1,453 bases of DNA, from assembly GCF_003334255.1 (NCBI RefSeq), contig NZ_QOWU01000158.1, one strand, 5' to 3'. The DNA is from Escherichia coli. GTDB lineage: Bacteria; Pseudomonadota; Gammaproteobacteria; Enterobacterales; Enterobacteriaceae. Shown here piece after piece: positions 1 through 240 of the stretch; the first letter of the stretch is position 1; the number at the start of each line of letters is the position of its first letter. Position numbers and translations under genes: made by a program. The notes under the pieces are model-generated. The model made no database searches, was not told the origin of the DNA, and worked only from the letters and a program-made list of their open reading frames with translations.

Positions 1-9
1 AAAAACTCT

Positions 10-19
10 TATGACCTTT
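10..19. repeat. Candidate subterminal inverted repeat, right-end copy (TATGACCTTT)
   Basis: Plus strand 10..19 TATGACCTTT is the exact reverse complement of 1438..1447 AAAGGTCATA. The two copies flank the transposase gene at 9 bp and 6 bp from the window edges. The match does not extend in either direction. Confidence 0.4.
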
Positions 20-35
20 GTCAAATATTGAGCCC

Positions 36-67
36 AAAAAGACCTTACGCAGCTCCGGGAGCTTCGT
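36..67 (-). terminator. Possible intrinsic terminator or RNA 3'-end hairpin (imperfect GC-rich hairpin followed by a U5 tract)
   Basis: Minus strand 67..47 ACGAAGCTCCCGGAGCTGCGT folds as an 8-bp stem (one A-G mismatch) with loop CCCGG, followed after 6 nt (AAGGTC) by TTTTT at 40..36. The gap between stem and U-tract is longer than in canonical terminators. Confidence 0.2.
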
Positions 68-86
68 TATATCGCGGATTAAAGAA

Positions 87-102
87 CCTGAAACAGTCAG
101 AC
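87..102. repeat. Arm of 16-bp imperfect inverted repeat (pairs with 241..256)
   Basis: Reverse complement of 87..102 (GTCTGACTGTTTCAGG) matches 241..256 (GTCTGACTGCTTCAGG) at 15 of 16 positions. Confidence 0.7.
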
Positions 103-240
103 TGTATCTTGGATTTTACAAACTCTTATTCGGGGATTTTAGCCCCATGACGATTTACGCAGTGAGCTGGCCTCTTTCTATATGCAGGTATTGGCGCATT
201 CTGACCTCCTGAATTCTTTTACGAGGATCACTCATTCCGT

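What the first reader, a model, noticed from the sequence alone, without database searches (positions are those of the whole stretch)
3..129. Internal 10-nt copy of the element's extreme terminal sequence (candidate donor-guide segment)
AAACTCTTAT at 3..12, at the edge of the window and probable right terminus, recurs exactly at 120..129 inside the stem-enclosed part of the candidate RNA. In bridge RNAs the donor-binding loop carries short segments matching the element's own end sequences. An internal copy of the terminus is therefore what a donor guide would look like. Caveat: one exact 10-mer direct repeat is about what chance predicts in a window this size (roughly 10^6 position pairs against 4^10 sequences), so only the location makes it notable.
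Basis: partly seen in the sequence, partly recalled or inferred. Interest (0 to 1): 0.55.

Follow-up and report, generated by a model that had tools for sequence, protein, structure and literature searches.

The report
ISEc45 bridge-RNA donor guide
The repeated 10-mer is real and marks the part of the mobile element ISEc45's guide ("bridge") RNA that recognises the element's own right end, but only 7–8 of the 10 bases are functional, the first five "terminal" bases are target DNA, and this is an ordinary feature of a known RNA-guided transposon family.

Summary
The window is ISEc45, an IS110-family (IS1111-group) insertion sequence, with its transposase on the minus strand. AAACTCTTAT occurs exactly at 3..12 and 120..129. 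An empty site and copies in other flanks show that window 1..7 is target DNA: AAAAA plus the shared core CT. The element starts at base 8, so 3..12 spans the junction (flank AAA, core CT, IS end CTTAT) and is not the element's extreme terminus.

On the transposase strand, 129..120 reads AUAAG-AG-UUU. It lies unpaired in the multiloop of a 170-nt structured RNA (256..87) whose stems show compensatory changes.

- The equivalent segment tracks each element's own end (AAG, GAG, CAG, CGG, ATC) in 31 of 41 genome relatives.
- An exact own-end 7-mer recurs in 71 of 112 metagenome relatives.
- The base after the core tracks the flank weakly but significantly, like the IS621 handshake guide. The next two bases do not.

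The segment is therefore a donor guide (5 nt), core (2 nt) and a probable 1-nt handshake. The last 2 matches are coincidental. Three further guides complete a bridge/seekRNA. ISEc45 is already catalogued as carrying a right-end bridge RNA, so this is a new, well-resolved member of a known kind.

The parts
1..5 (+). Target DNA (IS66-family tnpC, Lys-Asn codons), not part of the element. A5 is the base opposite the candidate handshake U122.
   Evidence: Present in the empty site. Varies between copies: AAAAA, AAGCA, AAGAA.
6..7 (+). Core dinucleotide CT at the right-end junction. It is shared between target and element, and is AG on the transposase strand.
   Evidence: The CT ambiguity shows up when occupied and empty sites are compared. 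AG is conserved at both junctions across relatives. It is CT or TT in different E. coli copies.
8..12 (+). True right-end terminus of ISEc45 (CTTAT). 8..10 is the 3-nt terminal extension and 11..12 the first bases of the subterminal inverted repeat. This is the DNA that the guide at 125..129 pairs with.
   Evidence: Empty-site comparison. The extension co-varies with the internal guide in relatives.
10..19 (.). Right subterminal inverted repeat (TATGACCTTT).
   Evidence: 10-nt perfect inverted repeat with 1438..1447 (I8). ATG.../...CAT repeats occur in most relatives.
19..24 (-). TTGACA, a candidate -35 hexamer of the promoter created when the ends join in the circular intermediate.
   Evidence: The joined ends read TTGACA-17 nt-TATGAC. 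No sigma-70-like site in the linear window. Function is inferred.
87..102 (-). 3' strand of the outer closing stem of the bridge RNA.
   Evidence: 16-nt, 94% complementary inverted repeat with 241..256 (I2). MFE fold z = -4.07. All 11 aligned pairs have compensatory changes.
120..129 (-). The internal copy, RNA 5'-AUAAG-AG-UUU-3'. 129..125 is the guide for the right end (pairs with 8..12), 124..123 is the core AG, 122 is a probable handshake base, and 121..120 match the flank by coincidence.
   Evidence: Unpaired in the multiloop. Extension identical to the element's own end in 31/41 relatives, no permutation as high. Exact own-end 7-mer found downstream in 71/112 metagenome loci. The +1 base matches the flank 16/26 (p=0.005) and 29/67 against 16.5 expected (p=0.0003); +2 and +3 are at chance.
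132..146 (-). Small conserved hairpin (GGGG-CUAAAAU-CCCC) separating the two sides of the donor-binding region.
   Evidence: GC-to-CG compensatory swap in 9 sequences.
150..154 (-). 5'-side donor guide (AUCGU) that can pair with the left-end extension ATGGT or ATGAT using G.U wobbles.
   Evidence: The same register in clade relatives reads ACCAU or AUCAU opposite ATGGT or ATGAT. Own-versus-other test p<0.0002. E. coli copies have ATGGT or ATGAT with an unchanged guide. This is the weakest of the four guides.
177..184 (-). 3'-side target guide: CAUAU (184..180) + core AG (179..178) + A177, matching the left junction CATAA-AG-A.
   Evidence: The homologous position in relatives equals left flank + AG + A(C/U). 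The E. coli sister variant reads CACGU-AG and sits at CACGT-AG sites.
212..220 (-). 5'-side target guide AAAAGAAUU. It pairs with the core plus right flank: perfect to AAAAGAATT sites, with wobbles to AAAAACT sites.
   Evidence: Relatives: CAAAAAUU opposite AGTTTTTG, CAAGAAUU opposite AGTTCTTG. Own-versus-other p<0.0002. 9-nt perfect match to the hsdS and L107 flanks.
241..256 (-). 5' strand of the outer closing stem. The RNA starts about 2 nt after the transposase stop codon (261..259).
259..1392 (-). IS110-family RNA-guided transposase, 377 aa (DEDD RuvC-like domain plus Tnp domain with the GL-P----SSG motif).
   Evidence: ORF. NCBIfam NF033542 at 278 bits, cut-off 140. Pfam PF01548 + PF02371. 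RefSeq annotation 'IS110-like element ISEc45 family transposase'.
1438..1447 (.). Left subterminal inverted repeat. 1442..1447 (TATGAC on the minus strand) is the candidate -10 of the junction promoter.
   Evidence: (I8).
1447..1453 (+). Left-end 7-nt terminal extension: ACCAT (1447..1451, the site for the 5'-side donor guide) plus the core CT (1452..1453).
   Evidence: ACCAT or ATCAT between copies.

Best explanation
The window is ISEc45, an IS1111-group member of the IS110 family. Its 3' non-coding region (window 256..87, minus strand) encodes a bridge RNA (seekRNA) of about 170 nt. The segment 129..120 (AUAAG-AG-UUU) lies on the 3' side of the donor-binding region. AUAAG pairs with the last five bases of the element's right end (DNA 8..12), and AG pairs with the CT core (6..7). 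The next U probably acts as a one-base handshake, pairing with the target base next to the core (A5) once strands are exchanged or in the integrated junction. If the CT-containing strand is called 'top', as in IS621, this is the right donor guide + core + handshake guide. In transposase orientation it is the guide for the RE end. The direct repeat with 3..12 arises because the window carries 7 bases of target, and the guide-core-handshake string reproduces the integrated RE junction. The last two matching bases are coincidental: the flank is T-rich, and one of those RNA positions is a U conserved across the family. Shown computationally: the element boundaries, covariation of the guide with the end, the RNA structure, and the presence of the other three guides. 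Inferred from homologous systems: transcription, binding to the transposase, strand chemistry and the role of the handshake.
For: Identity and boundaries: 100% match to ISEc45 copies; empty site against occupied site; variable 7-nt flanks in other copies. Protein: NF033542 and PF01548/PF02371. RNA structure: z = -4.07; 19 of 23 consensus pairs with compensatory changes; 92.3% of cells paired against 77% in shuffles and 38-56% when slid; the guide is unpaired. Covariation of the guide with the element's own right end: anchored only on the neighbouring hairpin, the extension is identical in 31/41 elements with five different extension types (0 of 20000 permutations as high), and 71/112 metagenome loci carry an exact own 7-mer 60-170 nt downstream, always preceded by C, against about 0.7% expected. 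The guide is invariant in E. coli copies that sit in different flanks, so it follows the donor and not the target. Handshake: +1 matches 16/26 (p=0.005) and 29/67 against 16.5 expected (p=0.0003). The same layout, RDG-core-HSG on the 3' side of the loop, is described for IS621 (PMC11208158). A complete four-guide set is specific to each element's own DNA, with G.U-tolerant pairing. Durrant et al. list ISEc45 as IS1111 with the bridge RNA in the RE. IS1111 seekRNAs are encoded downstream of tnp and are required for circle formation and insertion (PMC11187229).
Against: There is no expression, binding or mutational data for ISEc45 itself. Rfam 15 gives no hit, even at E up to 1. Ten of 41 relatives have a mismatch in the extension, mostly at its first base. 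The handshake signal is partial (about 43-60% matching), weakens when related elements are collapsed into lineages (my count is 8 of 16), and shows no variation inside the ISEc45 clade. The partner 5'-side donor guide is only 3-5 bp and needs wobbles. Calling the segment 'RDG' assumes IS621-like cleavage next to CT, which is untested for IS1111-type enzymes.
Confidence: 0.85

Rival explanations
1. Chance repeat: one exact 10-mer pair is about what a 1.45-kb window yields, and its position is a coincidence.
For: Resampled windows give about 1 such pair (P of at least one = 0.63), and the real window has 6. Two of the ten matching bases do appear coincidental.
Against: The homologous segment tracks the element's own end through five different extension sequences in 31/41 genome relatives and 71/112 metagenome relatives, at a fixed place in a conserved RNA structure.
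Confidence: 0.02
2. DNA-level feature: the internal copy is a second protein-binding site or a cryptic alternative right end recognised by the transposase as DNA, and not an RNA guide.
For: A DNA direct repeat of the end would also co-vary with the end. No RNA data exist for this element.
Against: The internal copy lacks the adjacent subterminal repeat that marks real ends (only AT of CAT is shared). It lies in the unpaired loop of an RNA structure kept by compensatory changes. The companion guides tolerate exactly the G.U-type differences expected of RNA-DNA pairing: UU opposite AG or AA, and U opposite the A/G polymorphism in the LE. Homologous elements are shown experimentally to use the RNA.
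Confidence: 0.05
3. It is a target guide and not a donor guide, because half of the 10-mer at 3..12 is target DNA.
For: Window 3..7 is target plus core. The base after the core follows the flank.
Against: The variable part that co-varies is the element's 3-nt extension, not the flank. The segment is identical in E. coli copies inserted in different flanks and in variants with different target guides. Separate target guides are found in the upstream loop, and these do follow the flanks.
Confidence: 0.03
4. Junction reader: in ISEc45 all three U's (122..120) pair with the AAA of the invariant Lys/Asn codons. The guide then reads across the integrated RE junction, mainly to license excision from a cognate site, and is more than a one-base handshake during integration.
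For: Exact 10-nt identity to the in-situ junction. The flank is AA(A/G) at -1..-3 in nearly all ISEc45 sites. ISEc11 needs cognate flanks on both sides for circle formation. An added handshake pair improved IS621 recombination.
Against: In clade relatives the second base after the core is U, C, G or A although the flank is always T there, and the third is U family-wide whatever the flank. Across 67 metagenome elements +2 and +3 match at chance.
Confidence: 0.15

Closest known systems
IS621 bridge RNA, donor-binding loop: right donor guide + core + handshake guide (Durrant et al. 2024, PMC11208160; Hiraizumi et al. 2024, PMC11208158)
   Same: A DEDD/Tnp recombinase with one structured ncRNA. 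The target loop lies 5' of the donor loop. Each loop has a 5'-side guide pairing with one strand and a 3'-side guide containing AG that pairs with the CT-core strand. The 3'-side guide is followed by 1-2 bases that match the other DNA partner next to the core. The core is CT. Covariation is strongest for the single base adjacent to the core.
   Different: The RNA is encoded downstream of the transposase in the right end, not upstream in the left end. The CT core is on the strand opposite to the transposase and RNA, so the 3'-side donor guide reads the RE end and not the LE. The donor guides sit in a multiloop around a small hairpin and not in a simple internal loop. There are long (10-bp) subterminal inverted repeats. 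The 5'-side donor guide is only about 5 nt and does not visibly pair with the core. No Rfam model matches.
IS1111-family seekRNAs of ISEc11, ISKpn4, ISPa11 and ISPst6 (Siddiquee et al. 2024, PMC11187229)
   Same: Subterminal inverted repeats with a 7-nt left and 3-nt right extension. No target duplication. The NCR lies downstream of tnp. The match complementary to the transposase-sense strand lies 5' of the match complementary to the other strand. A promoter is formed at the circle junction. Natural retargeting occurs by guide replacement between close relatives.
   Different: That paper assigns target matches in the short seekRNA but, in the text I read, does not map a guide for the element's own end. 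Here the end guide is mapped and shown to co-vary. ISEc45's transposase (377 aa) is longer than the 330-350 aa quoted for the compact IS1111 cluster. The target is a protein-coding motif of another IS, and not a REP, attC or transposon-IR site.
IS4321/IS5075-type IS1111 elements that target the terminal repeats of other transposons (from my own knowledge; mentioned in PMC11187229 section 13)
   Same: IS1111-group elements that insert site- and orientation-specifically into another mobile element.
   Different: ISEc45 and its clade hit the coding sequence of the IS66 TnpC transposase (GRKN|WLF codons) and inactivate it. They do not hit a terminal inverted repeat.

Membership tests
IS110 family, IS1111 group insertion sequence | DEDD (RuvC-like) N-terminal domain plus C-terminal Tnp domain with a conserved S/T-G motif | tested here: met
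   NF033542 'IS110 family RNA-guided transposase' at 278 bits, cut-off 140. PF01548 + PF02371. D13, E64, D102, D105 and S269-S270-G271 are invariant or nearly invariant in the 17-sequence alignment.
IS110 family, IS1111 group insertion sequence | Subterminal inverted repeats of 7-17 bp with short terminal extensions (7 nt left, 3 nt right) | tested here: met
   10-nt perfect IR at 10..19 and 1438..1447. With the 9-nt ATGACCTTT repeat the extensions are 7 nt (AGATGGT) and 3 nt (AAG) once the true ends are set by the empty site.
IS110 family, IS1111 group insertion sequence | Long non-coding region downstream of tnp (RE longer than LE) | tested here: met
   251 nt from the stop codon to the RE end, against 61 nt from the LE end to the ATG. 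Durrant et al.'s supplementary table lists 'ISEc45 / RE / IS1111'.
IS110 family, IS1111 group insertion sequence | Site- and orientation-specific insertion without target-site duplication, at a conserved core dinucleotide | tested here: met
   1446-bp insertion with only the CT shared. Same position and orientation in ISEc22, ISEc23, ISEc43 and ISEc47 and in relatives from other phyla.
Bridge RNA / seekRNA | Structured ncRNA next to tnp, supported by covariation | tested here: met
   z = -4.07. 19/23 pairs with compensatory changes. Covariation score 0.461 against 0.191 shuffled and at most 0.164 slid.
Bridge RNA / seekRNA | Loop segments that co-vary with the element's own ends (donor guides) | tested here: met
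   RE guide: 31/41 identical extensions, no permutation as high; 71/112 exact 7-mers. LE guide: weaker, own-versus-other p<0.0002.
Bridge RNA / seekRNA | Loop segments that co-vary with both strands of the target (target guides) | tested here: met
   Own-versus-other tests for both sides, p<0.0002. Explicit matches in clade relatives. E. coli variant pair CAUAU and CACGU with matching sites.
Bridge RNA / seekRNA | RNA is transcribed, binds the recombinase and is required for circle formation and insertion | not testable with these tools
   Shown for IS621 and for ISEc11, ISKpn4 and ISPa11, not for ISEc45.
Bridge RNA / seekRNA | Match to a curated RNA family model | tested here: not met
   No Rfam 15 hit at E up to 1 on either strand. 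This reflects library content and not an absence of structure.
IS621-type handshake guide | Bases 3' of the AG in the 3'-side donor guide pair with the target bases adjacent to the core (non-cognate DNA) | tested here: inconclusive
   +1: 16/26 (p=0.005) and 29/67 against 16.5 expected (p=0.0003). +2 to +4 at chance. There is no variation at +1 within the ISEc45 clade. The effect is partial, and the tests do not fully correct for shared ancestry.

The most novel reading that the evidence does not exclude
In IS1111-type elements the right-end donor guide routinely reads one base (in ISEc45 possibly up to three) across the element-target junction. This would be a handshake conserved between the IS110 and IS1111 groups despite their inverted layout. 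It could be the molecular reason why IS1111 elements need cognate flanking DNA to excise. ISEc45's clade would exploit it on an invariant Lys-Asn codon pair of IS66 transposase genes, making it a dedicated RNA-guided 'hunter' of another transposon family.
Probability: 0.25. Interest if true: 0.45.

Novelty: new member of a known kind. Interest (0 to 1): 0.3.

Why it matters
The finding does not reveal a new mechanism. It confirms, for a very common E. coli and Klebsiella element, that the IS110/IS1111 bridge-RNA model holds, and it gives base-level guide assignments (all four guides, core, true ends).

Practical consequences:
- The 1453-bp window, and probably database boundaries of this kind, include 7 bases of target. 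This creates a misleading "terminal" repeat.
- ISEc45 offers a natural set of donor and target guide variants for anyone engineering IS1111-type recombinases. The E. coli pair CAUAU and CACGU is matched to ISEc23 and to ISEc43/47.
- The one-base handshake signal suggests that this IS621 feature extends to the IS1111 group.
- The clade's strict targeting of the GRKN|WLF codons of IS66 transposases is a tidy example of one transposon family parasitising and inactivating another.

Tried and rejected
- Rfam scan of both strands at E up to 1: no hit, so no curated family could be used.
- Exact k-mer matching of the ISEc45 NCR against its own target and circle junction found little beyond ATAAGAG. 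The other guides only became visible through relatives and by allowing G.U wobbles.
- My first search for the left-end guide used the reverse complement of the whole LE junction and gave no consistent position. It was replaced by register-based comparison.
- The idea that the CAUAU target guide simply mismatches its ISEc23 site next to the core was revised. Other ISEc45 insertion sites (mostly occupied by the CACGU sister variant) have A at that position, and the CACGU variant matches ISEc43/47 perfectly.
- Reading all three U's as flank-specified was rejected on clade and metagenome data.
- Transposase relatives L090/91 and L100/101 lacked the RNA and the sTIR downstream, and L007's end was mis-called by my pipeline. 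These were left out.
- A literature search for ISEc45 and for IS110-into-IS66 targeting found only resistome lists and nothing mechanistic.
- A scan for an internal promoter or a terminator bounding the RNA found none, and region 8..90 has no significant fold.

Full report
**1. What the window is**

The 1453-bp window matches, at 100% over its whole length, copies annotated "IS110-like element ISEc45 family transposase" in E. coli chromosomes and plasmids. Matches of any length and identity occur in 1467 of 5426 complete E. coli genomes (587 with at least 80% of the element), and also on Klebsiella, Citrobacter, Salmonella and Shigella plasmids. The only long ORF is on the minus strand (1392..259, 377 aa). 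It scores 278 bits against NCBIfam NF033542 "IS110 family RNA-guided transposase" (cut-off 140) and carries Pfam DEDD_Tnp_IS110 and Transposase_20. In transposase orientation the element therefore has a 61-nt left non-coding end and a 251-nt right non-coding end.

**2. Checking the observation**

AAACTCTTAT is present exactly at 3..12 and 120..129 and nowhere else, even with one mismatch (D14). As a bare statistic this is unremarkable. Resampled windows contain about one exact direct repeat of 10 nt or more (P of at least one = 0.63), and the real window has six. Only context can make the repeat meaningful.

**3. Where the element really ends**

An uninterrupted ISEc23 transposase gene reads ...tctcggaaag AAAAACT TTATGttctttgg... 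(L004). The occupied site reads ...ggaaag AAAAACT|CTTATGACC...GGTCATACCATCT|TTATGttc....

- The insertion is 1446 bp with no duplication apart from an ambiguous CT.
- The element is window 8..1453 (equivalently 6..1451), and window 1..7 is target DNA.
- Other E. coli copies confirm this. The seven bases before CTTATG are AAAAACT, AAGCACT (in ISEc43), AAAAATT (in ISEc47) or AAGAATT (L107, and L103 in an hsdS gene), while the element sequence is constant.
- With these ends, the 9-10-bp subterminal inverted repeats (10..19 and 1438..1447, I8) are followed by a 3-nt extension at the right end and preceded by a 7-nt extension at the left end. This is the IS1111-group convention.

The "terminal" 10-mer is therefore three bases of target flank (AAA), the core (CT) and five bases of the element (CTTAT).

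**4. The RNA around the internal copy**

On the transposase strand, the region just after the stop codon folds significantly better than shuffles (z = -4.07).

- A 16-bp outer stem (256..241 with 102..87) encloses a long hairpin with a large internal loop, a single-stranded stretch, and a small hairpin (146..132).
- A second single-stranded stretch follows, containing 129..120 = AUAAGAGUUU.
- I collected 80 related loci from genomes (transposase 46-71% identical) and closer relatives (64-86%).
- An alignment of 47 non-redundant RNA regions gives the same architecture. 19 of 23 consensus pairs show compensatory changes. 92.3% of cells are paired, against 77% after shuffling and 38-56% when partners are slid. 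The covariation score is 0.461, against 0.191 shuffled and at most 0.164 slid.
- The segment of interest is unpaired in the consensus.
- Nothing downstream (8..90) is significantly structured.

**5. Does the internal segment follow the element's end?**

In transposase orientation the family anatomy is: [left flank] AG + 5 nt + ATG...(repeat) ... tnp ... RNA ... (repeat)...CAT + 3 nt + AG [right flank].

- Directly 3' of the conserved small hairpin, every relative has xAU + 3 nt + AG.
- Locating that segment only by the hairpin context, its 3-nt block is identical to the element's own right-end extension in 31 of 41 elements. It runs through AAG, GAG, CAG, CGG and ATC, and 110 of 123 positions match (0 of 20000 permutations as high).
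- An AAG guide and end also occur in an otherwise CAG-type background (L068), so the changes are not one inherited event.
- As an independent replication I scanned metagenomes for the hairpin motif. Of 112 guides with enough downstream sequence, 71 have an exact copy of their own 7-mer (AT + 3 nt + core) 60-170 nt downstream, always preceded by C. Chance expectation is about 0.7% per locus.
- In E. coli, the segment is invariant among copies lying in different flanks and among variants with different target guides.

It is not a chance repeat and not a target guide.

**6. How far does the functional match extend?**

After the internal AG, relatives read N-N-U-G.

- The third base is U and the fourth is G almost everywhere, whatever the flank.
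- Within the ISEc45 clade the second base is U, C, G or A although the flank base is always T.
- Only the first base tracks the flank: 16 of 26 clean genome elements (permutation p = 0.005) and 29 of 67 metagenome elements against 16.5 expected (p = 0.0003). Positions +2 to +4 are at chance.
- The signal is partial, and it shrinks when related elements are collapsed into lineages (my rough count is 8 of 16), so I treat it as probable and not proven.
- Of the ten repeated bases, seven (AUAAGAG) are firmly functional, one (U122) is probably functional, and two (U121, U120) match the T-rich flank by coincidence.

**7. Comparison with IS621 explains the layout**

[quoted passage not shown] It is followed at its 3' end by a handshake guide that pairs with the target's top-strand bases next to the core after strand exchange. 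Across orthologues, only the base adjacent to the core covaries (guide definitions).

- If the CT-containing strand of ISEc45 (the window's + strand) is taken as top, AUAAG pairs with CTTAT (8..12), AG pairs with CT (6..7) and U122 pairs with A5.
- This is the same order, the same side of the loop and the same one-base covariation as in IS621.
- The difference is that the CT strand is antisense to the transposase and RNA here, so this guide reads the RE end. That agrees with the reversed guide order reported for IS1111 seekRNAs.
- That cleavage chemistry follows IS621 is an inference.

**8. The rest of the bridge RNA**

The same comparative approach identifies the other guides.

- *5'-side target guide.* The 5' side of the upstream internal loop (220..212, AAAAGAAUU) pairs with the core plus right flank. 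Relatives have CAAAAAUU opposite AGTTTTTG and CAAGAAUU opposite AGTTCTTG. ISEc45's guide matches AAAAGAATT sites perfectly and AAAAACT sites through G.U/G.T wobbles.
- *3'-side target guide.* The 3' side (184..177, CAUAU-AG-A) equals left flank + core + first base of the left end. Relatives have AACC-AG, AGCC-AG and UAGCC-AG opposite their own flanks.
- *Natural retargeting.* The common variant reads CACGU-AG and sits at CACGT-AG sites in ISEc43/47. The window's variant reads CAUAU-AG and sits at CATAA-AG in ISEc23.
- *5'-side donor guide.* This is a 5-mer three bases before the small hairpin (154..150, AUCGU). It can pair with the left-end extension ATGGT or ATGAT. Relatives show ACCAU or AUCAU accordingly, and E. 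coli copies carry either LE variant opposite the same U. It is the weakest guide.
- *Specificity test.* All four RNA windows match their own element's DNA better than other elements' DNA (0 of 5000 permutations as high for each). The caveat is that related elements share both RNA and DNA.

**9. Expression**

Joining the ends would create TTGACA-17 nt-TATGAC across the junction. The linear window has no sigma-70-like site. This fits the junction-promoter model for this family but is only a consensus match.

**10. What is known and what is new**

- Bridge RNAs and seekRNAs of IS110/IS1111 elements are established.
- Durrant et al.'s supplementary table already lists ISEc45 as IS1111-group with the bridge RNA in the RE, and the seekRNA paper includes its transposase in its phylogeny.
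- I found no paper giving its guides, ends or target.
- The finding is thus a correct recognition of a known kind of feature in a catalogued element, with a boundary error.

**11. By-products**

- All members of the ISEc45 clade, from E. coli, Salmonella, Vibrio, Nitrosomonas, the planctomycete Limnoglobus and metagenomes, interrupt IS66-family TnpC genes. The site is the same codons each time, G-(R/K)-K-N|(W/F/Y)-(L/V/M)-F. The single non-IS66 site (hsdS) mimics this motif.
- The RE-junction core is CT or TT in different copies while the LE-junction core is always CT. This is compatible with insertion at AAT-T sites and a UU-ending target guide.

**12. Verdict**

- Mechanism: donor guide + core + probable one-base handshake within an IS1111-type bridge RNA (confidence about 0.85 for the guide, about 0.5 for the handshake).
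- Novelty: a new member of a known kind. Interest is modest.

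Noticed in passing
window 1..7 and 1447..1453; loci L005, L006, L085, L092, L093, L095, L097, L102-L107: The whole ISEc45 clade, across several phyla, inserts at the same codons of IS66-family transposase genes, G-(R/K)-K-N|(W/F/Y)-(L/V/M)-F, with the core CT being the last base of the Asn codon plus the first base of the next. It is an RNA-guided IS that specifically inactivates another IS family. No paper on this was found.
   Followed up: partly
L103 (NZ_CP072786.1, about 1390..1410 and 2850..2870): One E. 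coli copy sits in a type I restriction hsdS gene at a look-alike site (EKN|YVG; flank AAAAGAATT is a perfect 9-nt match to the 5'-side target guide). This is a natural off-family insertion. The Salmonella relative L085 also has a Methylase_S gene on one side.
   Followed up: partly
window 177..184 (minus strand), compared with L102-L107: Two E. coli ISEc45 variants about 97% identical differ in the 3'-side target guide: CAUAU-AG (this window, found at ISEc23 CATAA-AG sites) and CACGU-AG (perfect match to ISEc43/47 CACGT-AG sites). The inner hairpin of the target loop differs as well. This looks like natural retargeting.
   Followed up: partly
window 6..7 compared with 1452..1453; L003, L103, L106, L107: The core copy at the RE junction is CT in some copies and TT in others, while the LE-junction copy is always CT. 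The 5'-side target guide ends in UU, which pairs with AG by wobble or with AA perfectly. This suggests insertion at AAT-T as well as AAC-T sites, with the core heteroduplex resolved one way.
   Followed up: no
window 19..24 and 1442..1447 (minus strand): Joining the element's ends would create TTGACA-17 nt-TATGAC, with the -35 overlapping the right subterminal repeat. No sigma-70-like promoter exists in the linear window.
   Followed up: partly
window 479..488/545..554, 538..547/574..583 and others: The window has 6 maximal exact direct repeats of 10 nt or more against about 1 expected. The others lie inside the transposase ORF.
   Followed up: no
L012, L014, L017, L037, L043, L054, L078: In these relatives the internal guide reads CAG or CGG where the right-end extension is GAG, so the first extension base is mismatched. 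This could be a tolerated mismatch, decayed copies or an error in my end calls.
   Followed up: no
L028, L033, L036, L066 (Mesorhizobium, Microvirga): The left-end extension is TCCCT, but the RNA's 5'-side donor 5-mer (AAGGU) and the base pair after the target-guide core (AC) would fit ACCTT. RNA and left end disagree in this group.
   Followed up: no
L090/L091 and L100/L101: Transposase relatives (71% and 64% identical) whose downstream region lacks the bridge RNA and the subterminal repeat. Another transposase-like gene follows instead. These may be interrupted or degenerate elements.
   Followed up: no
window 119..122 (minus strand: U-N-U-G after the core); alignment A2 columns 194..197: The third and fourth bases after the guide's core (U, G) are conserved across nearly the whole family regardless of flank. 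The reason is unknown.
   Followed up: no
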